Virus record (IMG/VR): IMGVR_UViG_3300028591_000144
Source of the DNA: a virus
Direction: 5' to 3' (one strand)
Length of the DNA stretch: 64,000 bases
Shown: one piece after another, positions 44,893-59,348 of the stretch
Position numbering within the stretch: the stretch's first letter is position 1
How the letters are laid out: the number at the start of each line of letters is the position of its first letter
Position numbers and translations under genes: made by a program
The notes under the pieces: model-generated
What the model was told of the DNA's origin: nothing
Database searches by the model: none
The model's input: only the letters and a program-made list of their open reading frames with translations

Positions 44893-45270
44893 ATGGGTAT
44901 CTATATTGAAAACATAGAAATGCCAAAAGGGCATAACCATCTTACTATTGATATTTGGTCTAATGGAACTACAAGTTATGGAGTTTTTAATAGAGAAGGA
45001 AATCTTTGTACTTTTAAAGGGACAAAAGCAATTTCAGTCCCTTCGCATGGAGATTTAATAGATAGAGAACAAACAATTGACGCGCTTTGGAGAGCTTTAT
45101 ATAGTTATGAAGATAAAACAGAAAAACAATTTATTGATGACCCTAATTTAGATGTATCTGACTGGATATTACATCGTATTTTTGTTCAAAATATGAATGA
45201 TACTGATAGACAAATAGTATCATTATTACCAGCTATTATTCCAGCAGAACAGTTTGAGGAGAAGACATGA
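44893..45270 (+). CDS. Family E protein (MGIYIENIEMP...PSHGDLID...IIPAEQ). First of 7 paralogues.
   Basis: Conserved N-terminus M-S/G-I-Y-I-x-N-x-x-M-P, a central P-H-G-D/R-L-I-D, and a C-terminus P-x-I-I-x-A-D/S-E. Other members at 45461, 45775, 46176, 56750, 57303 and 57745. Confidence 0.6.
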   Translation: MGIYIENIEMPKGHNHLTIDIWSNGTTSYGVFNREGNLCTFKGTKAISVPSHGDLIDREQTIDALWRALYSYEDKTEKQFIDDPNLDVSDWILHRIFVQNMNDTDRQIVSLLPAIIPAEQFEEKT

Positions 45271-45464
45271 TGGGACTATGGTATAAACTGCAAGAATGGT
45301 TCAAGAAATTCCACAAAAAAGATTTGCGAAAAGTATGCAATGAGAAATATGGAGATGATTTCGTCAAAATGTATGACATGGTAAATAGTGGTATCCCTAT
45401 CGGCAATATAGAAGAGACAATGACTTTTCTCGCTATGGTGGAGGCGGCGAAGGAAGAAATATGA
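45267..45464 (+). CDS. Hypothetical protein, 65 aa
   Basis: Coupled ORF. Confidence 0.5.
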   Translation: MMGLWYKLQEWFKKFHKKDLRKVCNEKYGDDFVKMYDMVNSGIPIGNIEETMTFLAMVEAAKEEI

Positions 45465-45778
45465 GCATATTAATAAATATGGAGATGCCAACAAGCTGTT
45501 ATGATTGCCCGTTGAGACGGAGAGATGGTATGAATATTGTCTGCCCAGTAGCACACGAAAGGTTTTCTGTTGCGGATGTCAATATCCTTTATTATCGCCT
45601 TGATAATTGCCCTCTTGTTCCCATCCAACCGCATGGGGATTTGATTGAAGGCAAGACGTTTTTGAAAGCGGTGTATGAGACTGATGATTTCAGCTTGGAT
45701 GAATTTGAACATTTGACTATGCTTGTAGCAGCAACTCCAATCATTATCCCGGCTGATGAATCAAAGGAGAAACTATGA
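45461..45778 (+). CDS. Family E paralogue (MSILINMEMP...QPHGDLIEG...IIIPADESKEKL)
   Basis: Family motifs. Lies in a GC-richer block. Confidence 0.65.
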   Translation: MSILINMEMPTSCYDCPLRRRDGMNIVCPVAHERFSVADVNILYYRLDNCPLVPIQPHGDLIEGKTFLKAVYETDDFSLDEFEHLTMLVAATPIIIPADESKEKL

Positions 45779-46176
45779 GTGTCTTAATTAAAAATATGGC
45801 CATGCCGGTAAGCTGTTTTGGGTGTCCTTTTTTCATACAAGAGAATTATTGGAACAAAGATAATGAAACAGATATTTTGTCAAAGTGTAAACGAACAGGT
45901 GAGTTTACATGGGAAAGTGTGAACGGCTATCTGCCGAACTGCCCTCTTGTTCCCATCCAACCACATGGGGATTTGATAGACCGTGATGTGCTAACAATAA
46001 ATACAGCTGTGCCACTTGATGGAAAGCCTTATCGGTATGTTCACATTGACAATATCGAAAATGCTCCTGTTATCATCTCGGCAGACGAATCAGATATGGA
46101 CAGCTTTATCCATATCTTTGAAGAAGATGACGAAGAGGATGAAATGGACAGTTTTATTCATATTTTTAAAGATTAA
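45775..46176 (+). CDS. Family E paralogue (MSVLIKNMAMP...QPHGDLIDRD...VIISADESDMD)
   Basis: Family motifs. Contains the internal duplication DSFIHIF(E/K)...DSFIHIFKD. Confidence 0.65.
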   Translation: MSVLIKNMAMPVSCFGCPFFIQENYWNKDNETDILSKCKRTGEFTWESVNGYLPNCPLVPIQPHGDLIDRDVLTINTAVPLDGKPYRYVHIDNIENAPVIISADESDMDSFIHIFEEDDEEDEMDSFIHIFKD

Positions 46177-46553
46177 TGGACGGAAGAAAATGTAATATGA
46201 GTATATATATCAAAGGCATGAAAATGCCGAAAAACTGTAATGAGTGTCCAACTTGCAGAGATGGCACAACACTTGATGGGGACTATTGGTTGATGTGCGG
46301 ATATAATGGTAAACCACTTGAAAGCGAAATTGCTGCGGGGAAGCCTGATTGGTGTCCTCTCATCTCAATTCCACCGCATGGGAGATGTATTGATGCGGAT
46401 GCGCTTGCGGATATTTTCCATGGTTTCATAGCAATATATGACAGTTGCCCATTCAGCCTCCTAGACCTAGTACGACGTAATGAGCTTCAATCTGCACTTA
46501 CAGAAGTAATAAATGCTACTACTGTCATCCCAGCAAGCAAAGAGAGTGAGTGA
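46176..46553 (+). CDS. Family E paralogue (MSIYIKGMKMP...PPHGRCIDAD...TTVIPASKESE)
   Basis: Family motifs. Confidence 0.6.
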   Translation: MDGRKCNMSIYIKGMKMPKNCNECPTCRDGTTLDGDYWLMCGYNGKPLESEIAAGKPDWCPLISIPPHGRCIDADALADIFHGFIAIYDSCPFSLLDLVRRNELQSALTEVINATTVIPASKESE

Positions 46554-46661
46554 TGAATAAATATATTGAATTATCACAAGCGCTTAAAGTGTTTAATAAT
46601 TGTCGCAAATACAGTAATGATAAAAAAAGAATAATAGAAGTATGCGAAAGGGAAATGATTT

Positions 46662-46934
46662 ATGGAAAATACCTCAACAGCTGAATCTGTCTTTGATAGG
46701 CTTGTAAAGGTTCTTAATACGAATTGCGGTTATGTCGATGAAGAACCAGCAGAAAAGGTAGCAAGACGAATAATGAGAGCTGGACTTTTAAGAGAAGAAA
46801 AACCGCAAAAGTGGGAGTTTCTTTTCAATGCGCTTGATGGAACTCCACGTTACGGGTGTCCTGTTTGTAAGGAACTTGAATGGCGCAAAACAAACTTCTG
46901 CCCTAATTGTGGAGCAAGGATGGAGAAAAGCTGA
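46662..46934 (+). CDS. Zn-ribbon protein of the CPNCGA family (CPVCKELEWRKTNFCPNCGARMEKS)
   Basis: Family motif. Confidence 0.6.
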   Translation: MENTSTAESVFDRLVKVLNTNCGYVDEEPAEKVARRIMRAGLLREEKPQKWEFLFNALDGTPRYGCPVCKELEWRKTNFCPNCGARMEKS

Positions 46935-57605: not shown

Positions 57606-57744
57606 ACATGACTTATCTGCTTTTTATTGGGCTTGGCTATTTTCTTCAAGCATTGAGTACGAAATATGGAATTCCAATAGACGACACAACATGGATATGT
57701 TTCGCCATTTTAACAACTGGCGAAGTTATTTCGTGGAGGAAAAA

Positions 57745-58047
57745 ATGAGTATTTATATTAAAAATGTCGATATGCCGAAAGGCCGTCCAGTATGTATTGT
57801 CATTGACGCAGCTGGGCAAGCTCGGCGTTATGATTTGGACAATGACAGATACGCAGATGATGAATTGTTTGAAGCCATCTCTATTTCACTGCACGGACGG
57901 CTGATTGATGTGGATGCGTTTATCAAAAAGTGCAAAGAAATGGCTGACAAAGAAGACGGAAATCAACTCGATGTGCTTGTTCTTGTAAAATGGTTTCTTG
58001 AGCAGAATGCTCCAACCATCATCCAGGCAAGCGATGAGGGCGAGTGA
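57745..58047 (+). CDS. Family E paralogue (MSIYIKNVDMP...SLHGRLIDVD...PTIIQASDEGE)
   Basis: The internal ATG with RBS GGAGG is preferred over the track start at 57529. A 46-aa membrane ORF at 57608..57748 precedes it. Confidence 0.6.
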   Translation: MSIYIKNVDMPKGRPVCIVIDAAGQARRYDLDNDRYADDELFEAISISLHGRLIDVDAFIKKCKEMADKEDGNQLDVLVLVKWFLEQNAPTIIQASDEGE

Positions 58048-58319
58048 TGGCAGATCATCTTTGTGTGAAGTGCCTGAGAGAGACTTGCCCGAATGCTGGG
58101 TATGACACAGGCATAACAAAGTGTACTTATTATATCTCATCGAAACCAATCACCAATGCCGATCGAATTAGAAGTATGACTGATGATGAACTAGCTGAGA
58201 AACTTGCTAGTCATGTAAGGTGTGATATGTGCCCAAGATGGCCTATGAAGTGCGAAGAAAAATGCACAAAATACTGGCTTGATTGGCTGAGACAGGAAGC
58301 AAAGGAAAATGAGATATGA
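58044..58319 (+). CDS. Cys-rich protein of the NADRIRSMTDDELA...WLDWLRQE family (paralogue of 34482..34688)
   Basis: Shared motifs. Confidence 0.6.
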   Translation: MMADHLCVKCLRETCPNAGYDTGITKCTYYISSKPITNADRIRSMTDDELAEKLASHVRCDMCPRWPMKCEEKCTKYWLDWLRQEAKENEI

Positions 58320-58816
58320 CTAATAAACAATTGAATATTGCGGAAACAATCACTGATTACATCAGCAGTCAGAAGTGGCTTTCCGAGAGAGATATGCGGA
58401 CATTGGCTCACCTCCGGAATGATGCAGTTTGCGTTGACAGTCCAATAGGAGAATATGAATGTTCAGTAGAAACGAAAAGTAAATGGGAGCCGATATGCGT
58501 TGACATTTGTCTTCGGCACGAAATTCACGAGCTAATCTTCAAGCATAATGTGAGCACCATTGGAAGTTGTTGTGGCCATGGCAGAGAACAAGCATACATT
58601 CAAGTATCTCCTCAGTCTGTGCAAAAAATGCACGAACTTGGGTATGAACCATTGCCAGAAAAAGCAGACGGGCAAGGTAAATGGTGCTTTAAGCCGAAAA
58701 CATACTTTCTTGAACCTGTAAATAAAACTTACAAGTTACCGTGCGATGACCTTGCGAATACTCCTATTCCGAGAAATGATGGGCTATACAACATATTGAC
58801 AGAGGAGGATAAGTGA
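58316..58816 (+). CDS. Hypothetical protein, 166 aa
   Basis: Coupled ORF. Confidence 0.65.
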   Translation: MTNKQLNIAETITDYISSQKWLSERDMRTLAHLRNDAVCVDSPIGEYECSVETKSKWEPICVDICLRHEIHELIFKHNVSTIGSCCGHGREQAYIQVSPQSVQKMHELGYEPLPEKADGQGKWCFKPKTYFLEPVNKTYKLPCDDLANTPIPRNDGLYNILTEEDK

Positions 58817-59049
58817 TGAAACGGATACTGATTGTCCTTTTAATTGTGACTCTACTCTTATGCGGTTGCGATAAAAAGAACTCTGAGGAAATAGAAGAAA
58901 CACAACAAAGATTTACCATTGAGTATAGAGAAAAATCAAGCTCGTTTGACTACTTTATTATAATCCGTGATACAGAAACCGGAAAAGCATATCTGTTTGT
59001 AAAAAGCGGCTATGGAGGAGGGTTGACTCTATTAGAGGAGGATAAGTAA
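58813..59049 (+). CDS. Small putative lipoprotein (lipobox LLLCGC), 78 aa
   Basis: Signal peptide MMKRILIVLLIVTLLLCGC. Confidence 0.5.
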   Translation: MMKRILIVLLIVTLLLCGCDKKNSEEIEETQQRFTIEYREKSSSFDYFIIIRDTETGKAYLFVKSGYGGGLTLLEEDK

Positions 59050-59348
59050 TGGATGAATATATCAAGCGAGAACTGGCATTGAAAGTAAAGATACCACATT
59101 ACAGTGCAAATGGGGTAGAAATTGTAGTAAGCGAAGTAATACCAGTTGGATATATTGAAAAACTCCCCGCTGCTGATGTGCGGCCTGTGGTACATGGGCA
59201 TTGGATATATGAGGAGCCGAATGGTGCGAACAAGTTCAAAGGTGCATATTGGTGCGACCAGTGTCATCAGCCTGAGTTTTATAAAAGAAATTACTGCCCC
59301 AATTGCGGGGCTGATATGCGAGAACAGCCAAAAGAGGAACAAATATGA
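59049..59348 (+). CDS. Zn-ribbon protein of the CPNCGA family (CDQCHQ...YCPNCGADMREQ)
   Basis: Family motif. Confidence 0.6.
   Translation: MDEYIKRELALKVKIPHYSANGVEIVVSEVIPVGYIEKLPAADVRPVVHGHWIYEEPNGANKFKGAYWCDQCHQPEFYKRNYCPNCGADMREQPKEEQI

What the first reader, a model, noticed from the sequence alone, without database searches (positions are those of the whole stretch)
44893..59348. Two GC-richer gene blocks carry three expanding paralogue families
Blocks 44.9-47.6 kb and 56.75-59.35 kb, together with the GC-rich singletons at 8810, 23213 and 51711, are clearly less AT-rich than the flanking genome. They are occupied by multiple divergent copies of three unrelated small-protein families. 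The first is a seven-member family with the signature M-S-I-Y-I-x-N-x-x-M-P...P-H-G-D-L-I-D...P-x-I-I-x-A-D-E. The second is a four-member Zn-ribbon family ending in CPNCGA(D/K/R)M. The third is a two-member NADRIRSM...WLxWLRQE family. Diversifying gene families in a compositionally distinct compartment are typical of phage counter-defence or host-takeover arsenals. In those arsenals, each paralogue targets a variant of a host factor.
Basis: seen in the sequence. Interest (0 to 1): 0.6.

Follow-up and report, generated by a model that had tools for sequence, protein, structure and literature searches.

The report
Acquired small-gene cassettes in huge phage
Two GC-richer stretches of a large rumen phage are early-transcribed accessory regions filled with horizontally acquired, mix-and-match small genes from three very large uncharacterised phage protein families; they are candidate host-interaction genes, but their function is untested.

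Summary
Blocks 44.9-47.6 kb and 56.75-59.35 kb have GC3 of about 0.34-0.37, against 0.21 for the other genes. They carry 7 'E', 4 Zn-ribbon (one partly split) and 2 'NADR' genes.

The reading 'expanding paralogue families' does not hold. Every copy has a much closer relative in other phages than in the window. The families normally live in about 50%-GC Clostridia phages of ruminant and human guts. E genes are GC-richer than their genome in every AT-rich carrier checked.

The three families are not independent. They sit side by side in many phages and occur fused: E+NADR, E-half+Zn, E+E. E proteins are mosaics. A conserved leader, centre (PPHGRLID) and tail frame two variable cassettes that are swapped at the centre; this is visible at DNA level.

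Block 1 follows a copy of the phage's repeated sigma-70-like early promoter; block 2 follows only a degenerate copy. Related huge phages carry 0, 1 or 3 E genes, at different places. That matches a hyperplastic accessory region.

No Pfam, PHROG, NCBIfam, PADLOC, PDB or fold match exists. The family has about 7,800 clusters at 50% identity. A role as early, acidic binder proteins (counter-defence or takeover) is plausible but only inferred.

The parts
44643..44751 (+). Intrinsic terminator hairpin (GAAGTAATA-TTTT-TATTACTTC followed by a long T run), then a copy of the repeated early promoter (TTGATT, 17-nt spacer, TG-TATAAT). This is the upstream boundary of block 1.
   Evidence: Sequence read. 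Member of a promoter repeat family with 30 copies (D1/D2/D18). Consensus scan at 44700-44728 with an extended -10.
44893..45270 (+). E family member 1 (125 aa). It has native AT-rich composition (GC3 0.17).
   Evidence: Outside homologues are 80-87% identical.
45267..45464 (+). 65-aa gene of unknown function, GC3 0.44. It travels with E genes elsewhere.
   Evidence: 85% identical ORF next to an E gene in L021. No family hit.
45461..45778 (+). E family member 2 (105 aa, Cys4 N-cassette).
   Evidence: AF2 model: the N module (residues about 10-50) has pLDDT about 90 and is followed by two helices.
45775..46176 (+). E family member 3 (133 aa). It has an acidic repeated C-terminal extension, MDSFIHIF x2.
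   Evidence: It shares 44 nt with 2 mismatches with member 2, exactly at the central junction.
46197..46553 (+). E family member 4 (118 aa counted from MSIYIKG; the ORF opens at 46176).
46550..46684 (+). 44-aa fragment that matches the N-terminus of the Zn family. It is AT-rich and lies in the +1 frame relative to the next gene. It may be a split or frameshifted gene.
   Evidence: (E = 7.7e-10 to the Zn profile).
46662..46934 (+). Zn-ribbon family member (90 aa).
   Evidence: Outside homologues are 85-92% identical.
47184..47612 (+). Zn-ribbon family member (142 aa). It carries the helical cassette RDEAIKMGAELAAMHGSDATSQQLEEAY.
47616..48319 (+). Two genes of resident composition (114 and 117 aa) that finish the block-1 transcription unit.
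   Evidence: GC3 0.12 and 0.20. A homologue of 47966 lies next to Band_7 in relative L099.
48335..48395 (+). Hairpin plus the next early promoter copy. This is the downstream boundary of the block-1 unit.
   Evidence: (D7).
56692..56761 (+). Degenerate copy of the repeated promoter. It keeps TATAAT at 56719-56724 but has no good -35 hexamer. It lies upstream of block 2.
   Evidence: D2, 61% identity to the reference copy. Sequence read.
56762..57061 (+). E family member 5 (99 aa, beta-hairpin N-cassette without Cys4).
   Evidence: 96% identical to P0004. AF2 model: the leader forms strand E2-5 in a sheet with E19-21, E26-29 and E34-42.
57058..57300 (+). 80-aa protein with a hydrophobic N-terminus and a Cys-rich remainder. 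It is the conserved partner gene of E.
   Evidence: 70% identical homologue directly upstream of the single E gene in relative L002. It is found fused to an E protein in P0468.
57303..57605 (+). E family member 6 (100 aa).
57691..58047 (+). E family member 7. The MSIYIKN leader starts at 57745. An in-frame extension, MDMFRHFNNWRSYFVEEK, is conserved in relative L002.
58044..58319 (+). NADR family member (91 aa, 8 Cys).
58316..58816 (+). 166-aa Cys-rich protein of unknown function (GC3 0.40).
   Evidence: no family hit.
58813..59049 (+). 78-aa lipoprotein-like protein (DUF6440).
   Evidence: Pfam PF20037, E = 4.5e-11. A homologue sits beside the E and NADR genes in relative L099.
59049..59348 (+). 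Zn-ribbon family member (99 aa).
59345..60037 (+). Pentapeptide-repeat gene that ends the block-2 unit. It is interrupted by one in-frame TAG at 59477-59479.
   Evidence: D15. The frame was checked by hand from the coordinates.
27836..28093 (+). Zn-ribbon family member outside the blocks, with native composition (GC3 0.20).
34482..34688 (+). NADR family member outside the blocks (68 aa).
23213..23605 (+). GC-rich (0.53) member of a fourth paralogous family with a winged-helix-like appearance. The other members are 6174-6539, 8810-9163 and 51711-52043.
   Evidence: Orthologues lie at a syntenic place in relatives.

Best explanation
The two GC-richer blocks are accessory gene clusters in the plastic, early-transcribed part of a large rumen Clostridia phage.

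Shown:
- The genome carries 30 near-identical sigma-70-like promoters, several paired with terminator hairpins.
- Block 1 starts right after such a terminator-promoter cassette and ends at the next one. Block 2 has only a degenerate promoter copy upstream and runs to the next good promoter.
- The blocks are filled with members of a guild of small proteins: E, a Zn-ribbon family, the NADR family, the 57058-type protein and a DUF6440 lipoprotein.
- This guild normally lives in the early accessory region of about 50%-GC Clostridia phages, next to DNA methylases, DUF551, dUTPase and RusA.
- Members of the guild are found fused to each other.
- E proteins are built as conserved leader strand, variable N cassette (Cys4 knuckle or beta-hairpin), conserved centre (PPHGRLID), variable helical cassette and conserved acidic tail (APTIIPAEE). 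N and C cassettes are exchanged between genes, with joints at the centre.
- Related huge phages carry different numbers of these genes, at different places.

Inferred:
- The genes entered this AT-rich genome by horizontal transfer from the GC-richer pool and are partly ameliorated.
- The multiplicity comes from gathering divergent alleles, not from local duplication.
- Exchange is helped by the repeated promoter-terminator cassettes and the conserved junction codons.

Inferred more weakly (my estimate about 0.35): the products are early, acidic, non-enzymatic binder proteins. Their conserved frame holds two swappable recognition cassettes, and they act on host or rival-element proteins (counter-defence or takeover).
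For: Composition:
- GC3 is 0.34-0.37 in the blocks and 0.21 elsewhere.
- 79 IMG/VR loci that carry E have a median GC of 0.50.
- E genes are GC-richer than their genome in all AT-rich carriers checked.
- Phages L017 (GC 0.54) and L064 (GC 0.39) share the C half of an E gene at 97% nucleotide identity.

No local duplication:
- Each of the 13 members has an outside homologue that scores about 2-6 times its best in-window paralogue.

Guild:
- The Zn family lies within +/-10 kb of E in 42 of 79 loci and the NADR family in 31 of 79, always on the same strand.
- Fusions seen: E+NADR (P0370, P0493, P0402), 57058-type+E (P0468), E N-half+Zn (P0147, P0173, P0209), E+E (P0001, P0362), and Zn+DUF551.

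Mosaic:
- One C-cassette cluster is combined with 8 different N-cassette clusters.
- Five of six partial nucleotide matches at 88% identity or more end within about 25 nt of the PHG codons.
- Neighbouring window genes share 44 nt with 2 mismatches at the junction.

Protein-level selection on the frame:
- The leader residues are conserved while their codons vary synonymously.

Structure:
- The leader and the strand before the centre motif lie in the beta-sheet of the N domain, and the C part is helical.

Early transcription:
- Promoter family, scan, terminator sequence.

Variation among relatives:
- L002 has 1 E gene after Bmp. L092, L093 and L100 have none within 10 kb of Band_7. L099 has 3 E, 1 NADR and the lipoprotein gene upstream of the RNA ligase.

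Context in ordinary phages:
-.

Acidity:
- Median pI of E proteins is 4.8 and median net charge is -6.
Against: - No experiment and no homology to any characterised protein supports a function. The counter-defence role rests on context alone.
- The promoter before block 2 is degenerate. Timing of expression is inferred from consensus matches, not from transcripts.
- The direction of transfer is inferred from composition only.
- Some close outside homologues (80-96% identical) may be orthologues in sister phages rather than donors. In that case part of the array is old in this lineage; 44893 is fully ameliorated.
- The AF2 models have only moderate confidence (pLDDT 71-75, pTM about 0.4).
- Nearly invariant H and D in the centre motif could mean metal binding or catalysis rather than a passive frame.
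Confidence: 0.6

Rival explanations
1. The families are expanding inside this genome by duplication and diversifying selection, as a counter-defence arsenal in which each paralogue targets a variant host factor.
For: Seven, four and two copies are present, partly in tandem with overlapping stop and start codons. The content is variable among relatives. Within one other phage (L038) two E genes share a C cassette at 90% nucleotide identity, so local cassette copying can happen.
Against: No window copy has its nearest relative in the window. In-window identities are 31-40% for E. The copies carry different N and C cassette types that are each found in other phages. The foreign composition points to import. 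The window does show what a recent duplication looks like (2096-2791 and 3712-4476, 81% nucleotide identity), and the E genes look nothing like that.
Confidence: 0.1
2. The proteins are small nucleic-acid-binding regulators or structural DNA-binding proteins. They would resemble the roughly 35-copy Zn-ribbon expansion of Bacillus phage G and would tune early or middle transcription.
For: There are four-Cys ribbons in the Zn family and in many E N-cassettes. They lie beside replication and DNA-modification genes. Iyer et al. 2021 (PMC7824862) suggest this role for the phage G Zn-ribbon expansion. Two Zn members are near neutral, with pI 7.6.
Against: E proteins are acidic (median pI 4.8, net charge -6), and many lack the Cys4 knuckle altogether. 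No match to any DNA-binding family reaches its threshold. The extreme cassette diversity fits variable protein targets better than promoter DNA.
Confidence: 0.15
3. The genes are mostly neutral or selfish passengers. They would be small ORFs that spread because they sit between recombination-prone promoter-terminator cassettes and carry conserved junctions, giving the phage little benefit.
For: Presence is patchy among close relatives, several of which have none nearby. There is a possibly split Zn gene. The blocks are bounded by repeated regulatory cassettes like the T4-type PeSLs that form transferable mini-circles (PMC2839356).
Against: The frame motifs are kept at the protein level across GC 0.31-0.63 with synonymous variation. 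The family comprises about 7,800 clusters at 50% identity, with intact reading frames. The guild membership and fusions are conserved, which argues for a shared function.
Confidence: 0.13
4. The higher GC is not foreign origin. It would reflect amino-acid content or selection on these genes, or an assembly chimera.
For: Members of the fourth family (wH-like) stay GC-rich at a syntenic place in diverged relatives. Import followed by decay does not easily explain this.
Against: The excess is at third codon positions. The same families are about 50% GC in their usual carriers. A half gene at 97% nucleotide identity is shared across a 15-point GC gap. An independent assembly (L005) reproduces block 1 and the start of block 2.
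Confidence: 0.02

Closest known systems
Hyperplastic regions of T4-type phages with promoter-early stem-loop (PeSL) cassettes (Arbiol et al. 2010, PMC2839356)
   Same: Many near-identical strong sigma-70-like promoters are paired with terminator hairpins. Small non-conserved genes lie between them. Insertions, deletions and replacements distinguish related phages at these places.
   Different: This is a different phage lineage, an uncultured rumen Clostridia phage. Recombination between the cassettes and mini-circles was not shown here. In this window the cargo itself also carries internal recombination joints.
Host-takeover module of Bacillus phage SPO1 and the early accessory ('nin-like') regions of temperate Firmicutes phages (my own knowledge, not checked here)
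   Same: Clusters of small early genes sit behind strong host-type promoters, between or beside replication genes. Most have no homologues of known function.
   Different: No sequence relationship was found. For SPO1 several products have demonstrated host targets, whereas none is known here.
Lineage-specific expansion of a Zn-ribbon protein (about 35 copies) in Bacillus phage G (Iyer et al. 2021, PMC7824862)
   Same: A jumbo phage of a Gram-positive host carries many copies of a small Zn-ribbon protein of unknown role.
   Different: Iyer et al. describe the phage G case as a lineage-specific expansion. Here the copies are closer to genes of other phages than to each other, so they are not a lineage-specific expansion. 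I did not compare the sequences directly.
Polymorphic, cassette-swapping effector systems such as polymorphic toxins and anti-defence islands (my own knowledge)
   Same: Conserved framework segments are combined with interchangeable variable modules. Diversity is very high and the genes cluster in variable islands.
   Different: The proteins are only about 100 aa. No toxin, immunity or known anti-defence domain is present, and no partner gene logic has been established.

Membership tests
Lineage-specific (in situ) paralogue expansion | Paralogues within the genome are each other's closest relatives. | tested here: not met
   For all 13 members the best outside hit (85-233 bits, 44-96% identity) beats the best in-window hit (34-52 bits).
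Hyperplastic accessory region of the T4 PeSL type | Repeated strong sigma-70-like early promoters paired with stem-loop terminators that flank small genes. | tested here: met
   30 copies of TTGATTTTTTAAAAAAAATATGATATAAT-like promoters. Hairpin plus promoter at 43573-43620, 44643-44751, 48335-48395 and 49647-49739.
Hyperplastic accessory region of the T4 PeSL type | Gene content at these places differs between related phages. | tested here: met
   Relatives identified by Band_7 (80-91% identity) carry 0, 1 or 3 E genes near it, at different positions.
Hyperplastic accessory region of the T4 PeSL type | Exchanges are mediated by recombination between the regulatory cassettes (mini-circles). | not testable with these tools
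   This needs junction reads or PCR on phage DNA.
Zn-ribbon proteins (Pfam zinc-ribbon clan) | Two CxxC knuckles, and a profile match above the family threshold. | tested here: inconclusive
   Four Cys are invariant in 65 sequences. The best Pfam hits score 21-22 bits, below the gathering scores of 25-27.
Known anti-defence or defence protein families | Sequence or fold similarity to a characterised member. | tested here: not met
Programmed diversification (DGR or shufflon type) | Template and variable repeat pairs, or inverted recombination sites with a dedicated enzyme nearby. | tested here: not met
   No long direct repeats lie inside the blocks. The longest exact match between any two copies is 23 nt. 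I saw no reverse transcriptase or invertase ORF in the block ORF lists. Inverted repeats were not searched for specifically.
DUF6440 (PF20037) | Profile match above the gathering score. | tested here: met
   58813-59049 scores 42.8 bits against a threshold of 26.5.

The most novel reading that the evidence does not exclude
E, Zn and NADR proteins together may form a previously unrecognised combinatorial mini-domain system of Clostridia phages. Short conserved junction motifs (MSIYIKGMEMP, PPHGRLID, APTIIPAEE) would serve both as the fold framework and as recombination joints. Phage populations could then keep re-assorting small recognition cassettes into new early effectors against host immunity. 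This would be a phage counterpart of polymorphic effector systems.
Probability: 0.2. Interest if true: 0.7.

Novelty: new member of a known kind. Interest (0 to 1): 0.45.

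Why it matters
Three protein families have thousands of members each and no entry in Pfam or PHROGs. For E alone there are about 7,800 clusters at 50% identity. They turn out to be one linked, recombining guild that sits in the early accessory regions of gut and rumen Clostridia phages. That makes it a compact, well-defined set of candidates for host-interaction or anti-defence screens, in a group of phages for which almost nothing is known. 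The cassette-with-conserved-joints design also offers a simple test bed for how small phage proteins diversify. For genome annotation, the result is a warning. Multi-copy families in a compositional island can reflect the gathering of foreign alleles rather than local expansion.

Tried and rejected
- Nucleotide search of both blocks against 50,697 GenBank phages gave no match. tblastn of two E proteins against the same set gave no match. The family is absent from deposited phage genomes at that sensitivity.
- Looking for close relatives through the Bmp protein in IMG/VR found nothing. An exact-protein look-up returned only a second assembly of the same phage. Relatives were finally reached through Band_7.
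- A profile-profile comparison of the E and Zn families was weak (hhalign probability 30%). I dropped the idea that they are homologous or circular permutations of each other. The link between them rests on chimeras and fusions, not on common descent.
- Fold searches with both AF2 models gave only noise. The AFDB library was not available.
- Longer E-containing proteins were scanned for informative Pfam domains and none was found. The extensions are other guild modules.
- I considered a DGR or shufflon mechanism and rejected it for lack of repeats or enzymes.
- I considered an assembly artefact and rejected it for block 1 and the start of block 2, on the independent contig L005.
It was repeated with a narrower alignment.

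Full report
WHAT THE WINDOW IS

The window has 33.6% GC. Nearly all genes lie on the + strand. It carries nine to ten tRNA genes, a tmRNA and a ROOL RNA. Its 815-aa protein at 37716-40163 finds homologues only in uncultured huge phages of 462-735 kb. The window's own contig is 97,480 nt.

A clear relative is L001-L003. Its proteins are 56-91% identical to the window's, in the same order. It sits on contigs of 213-243 kb, and one copy is binned with a sheep-rumen Clostridia MAG. A 50-nt sequence with an almost perfect sigma-70-type promoter (TTGATT, 17-nt spacer, TG-TATAAT) occurs 30 times, often just after a terminator hairpin.

CHECK OF THE OBSERVATION

The compositional claim is correct. It is strongest at third codon positions:
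- 71 other genes: GC3 0.21 +/- 0.08.
- Block 1: mean GC3 0.34 (p = 8e-4).
- Block 2: mean GC3 0.37 (p = 8e-6).

The three families exist with the stated copy numbers and motifs. Corrections are needed:
- The first E gene (44893) and the Zn gene at 27836 have native composition.
- One Zn and one NADR member lie outside the blocks.
- A 44-aa ORF at 46550-46684 is the N-terminus of a Zn-family protein in another frame.
- The 'GC-rich singletons', together with 6174, are a fourth family.

A second, independent assembly (L005, 19 kb) has the same order for block 1 and the first genes of block 2. It ends inside the last E gene.

THE FAMILIES ARE LARGE, UNANNOTATED AND BELONG TO OTHER PHAGES

A profile of the seven E proteins finds 1,239 proteins in the 90%-clustered collection. 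It finds 7,777 representatives of 50% clusters, 3,540 of them at E <= 1e-10. The Zn and NADR profiles each find more than 4,500.

None of these has a name or a Pfam domain beyond generic zinc ribbons. Pfam, PHROGs, NCBIfam and PADLOC give nothing. The PDB profile search gives only one chance-level hit (E = 1.6). Two E proteins find nothing in 50,697 GenBank phages. In species-representative genomes the E family occurs only in MAGs, nearly all of Clostridia, Lachnospiraceae, Ruminococcus or Eubacteriales, many of them from ruminant guts.

Among 79 IMG/VR loci that carry E, the median GC is 0.50, with a range of 0.31-0.63. In 50-70-kb phages the genes sit between ERF/SSB/helicase-loader genes and RusA/dUTPase, beside DNA methylases and DUF551. 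A scan of 129 neighbouring proteins found DUF551, dUTPase, Dam and other methylases, Lar, integrase and terminase. This is the classical early accessory region of temperate phages.

GATHERED, NOT EXPANDED

For every one of the 13 members, the best homologue outside the window scores roughly two to six times higher than the best paralogue inside it. For example, 56762 is 96% identical to P0004 but only 34% identical to its closest window paralogue.

In every AT-rich phage that carries E genes, these genes are GC-richer than the genome. This holds for L002, L099, L020, L050, L080, L028 and L064. Phages L017 (GC 0.54) and L064 (GC 0.39) share the C half of an E gene at 97% nucleotide identity.

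Together this points to a flow of genes from a pool at about 50% GC into AT-rich large phages, with partial amelioration. It does not point to local duplication. The window does contain a recent duplication for comparison: 2096-2791 and 3712-4476 at 81% nucleotide identity.

E PROTEINS ARE MOSAICS WITH CONSERVED JOINTS

An alignment of 111 sequences shows three conserved segments: a leader (MSIYIKGMEMP), a centre (CPLVPVPPHGRLIDxDAL) and a tail (NAPTIIPAEE). M1, I5, M9, P10, H, G, L, D, P and I are invariant or nearly so. Between these segments the sequence is unrelated across subgroups.

I clustered the two variable parts separately. The same C cassette occurs with up to eight different N cassettes, and the reverse also holds. 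At the DNA level, five of six partial high-identity matches between E genes end within about 25 nt of the PHG codons. The neighbouring window genes 45461 and 45775 are 37% identical as proteins, yet they share 44 nt with two mismatches exactly at this joint.

The leader is conserved as protein while its codons vary, so the frame is under protein-level selection. AF2 models of a Cys4-type and a hairpin-type member agree on a small beta-sheet N domain followed by a less confident helical part. In the hairpin-type model the sheet includes the leader strand and the strand before PPHG. No known fold matches. E proteins are acidic, with a median pI of 4.8.

THE THREE FAMILIES FORM ONE GUILD

The Zn family lies within 10 kb of E, on the same strand, in 42 of 79 loci. 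The NADR family does so in 31 of 79. Natural fusions exist:
- E+NADR: P0370, P0493, P0402.
- The 57058-type protein+E: P0468.
- E N-half joined to the Zn family's helical cassette and ribbon: P0147, P0173, P0209.
- E+E: P0001, P0362.
- Zn+DUF551: P0159, P0161.

A direct profile comparison of E and Zn is weak. I therefore treat them as linked modules, not as homologues.

VARIATION AMONG RELATIVES

I used Band_7 (80-91% identical) to find relatives.
- L002 has a single E gene with its 57058-type partner after Bmp. It has a minus-strand Gp10_C gene where the window has block 1.
- L092, L093 and L100 have no member of the guild within 10 kb.
- L099 has three E genes, one NADR gene and the DUF6440 lipoprotein gene upstream of the RNA ligase.

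Arrays are also found elsewhere: 29 of 79 loci have two or more E genes, and the 153-kb contig L064 has six.

HOW IT MOST LIKELY WORKS

Shown:
- The blocks' position relative to the repeated promoter-terminator cassettes.
- Foreign composition.
- The guild structure and the cassette exchange at the centre motif.
- Variable presence among relatives.

Inferred: import by recombination, possibly helped by the repeated regulatory cassettes as in T4-type hyperplastic regions (PMC2839356); early expression from host-type promoters.

Inferred more weakly: the proteins are non-enzymatic binders. A conserved frame would present two exchangeable recognition cassettes, and the proteins would act on host or competitor proteins.

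Rivals:
- DNA-binding regulators, as proposed for the Zn-ribbon expansion of phage G (PMC7824862).
- Largely selfish passengers.

VERDICT

This is a plastic, foreign, probably early accessory compartment. However, the families are imported mosaics rather than local expansions, and any counter-defence role is untested. The kind of feature is known. The protein guild itself is undescribed and may be worth screening.

Noticed in passing
window 62393-63012 (+): A full-length ROOL RNA (274 bits against a gathering score of 99). It lies inside the tRNA array, behind a copy of the early promoter at 62279.
   Followed up: partly
window 43793-44649 (+); 59345-60037 (+); also 15150-15929 and 17818-18600: Reading frames interrupted only by in-frame TAG codons. 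A Cys/Ser/Asn-rich gene just before block 1 has three, and the pentapeptide-repeat gene that ends block 2 has one. TAG may be read through or recoded in part of this genome. No tRNA with anticodon CTA is in the window, but one with anticodon TCA is at 61786-61856. In the relative, NCBI and ENA gene calls for the PhoH and lysin genes differ in a way that also suggests recoding.
   Followed up: partly
window, 30 sites, e.g. 16547, 21046, 28652, 40218, 44700, 49688, 54445, 60313, 61729: One 50-nt promoter sequence (TTGATTTTTTAAAAAAAATATGATATAATATATATAG) is repeated throughout, often after a terminator hairpin. A second promoter type (CTCTTGACAAACC..TGTGCTATAATAAG) occurs six times at 6082-9901, before the GC-rich gene at 8810.
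   Followed up: partly
window 11104-11699: An array of about 16 copies of AAGTAACATTTTGTTACC, which contains the inverted repeat GTAACA/TGTTAC. It lies in the only region of negative GC skew (10.5-15 kb). It could be a replication origin or a set of regulator binding sites.
   Followed up: no
window 54500-55783 and 56428-56574: A GC-rich (0.41) stretch of 1.3 kb without ORFs lies behind an early promoter and before the tmRNA. It contains pieces that look like tRNA D-arms and T-arms far apart (GGCGGAATAGGTAGACGC ... GCAAGGTGCAAATCCTTGCC). Rfam also calls a tRNA that spans 147 nt at 56428-56574, which ARAGORN missed. These may be intron-bearing tRNA genes.
   Followed up: partly
window 6174-6539, 8810-9163, 23213-23605, 51711-52043; L093:15059-15448; L100:6247-6648: The fourth paralogous family (winged-helix-like, GC up to 0.53) has orthologues at a syntenic place in diverged relatives. 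They are still about 50% GC there, in genomes of 30-35% GC. Simple import followed by decay does not explain this.
   Followed up: partly
window 2096-2791 and 3712-4476: Two copies of a 231-254-aa gene with 81% nucleotide identity. Repeated 110-130-nt elements lie between genes across 0.5-9.7 kb. This is a real recent duplication, in contrast to the E genes.
   Followed up: no
window 46550-46934: The N-terminus (44 aa, AT-rich) and the body (90 aa, GC-richer) of a Zn-family protein lie in different frames, with an A7 run at about 46632. This could be a frameshifted gene, a recombination scar or two separate genes.
   Followed up: partly
L064 (IMGVR_UViG_3300021400_000130, 153.6 kb), locus coordinates 8344-10620: Another large, fairly AT-rich phage contig (GC 0.39). 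It has six E genes and two Zn genes in one array, all GC-richer than the genome. One shares its C half at 97% nucleotide identity with a 44-kb phage of GC 0.54 (L017).
   Followed up: partly
window 45775-46176, C-terminus: An acidic tail with two copies of MDSFIHIF (SDMDSFIHIFEEDDEEDEMDSFIHIFKD). The same tail recurs on E proteins with other cassettes (P0018, P0049, P0083, P0362). It may be a short linear motif.
   Followed up: no
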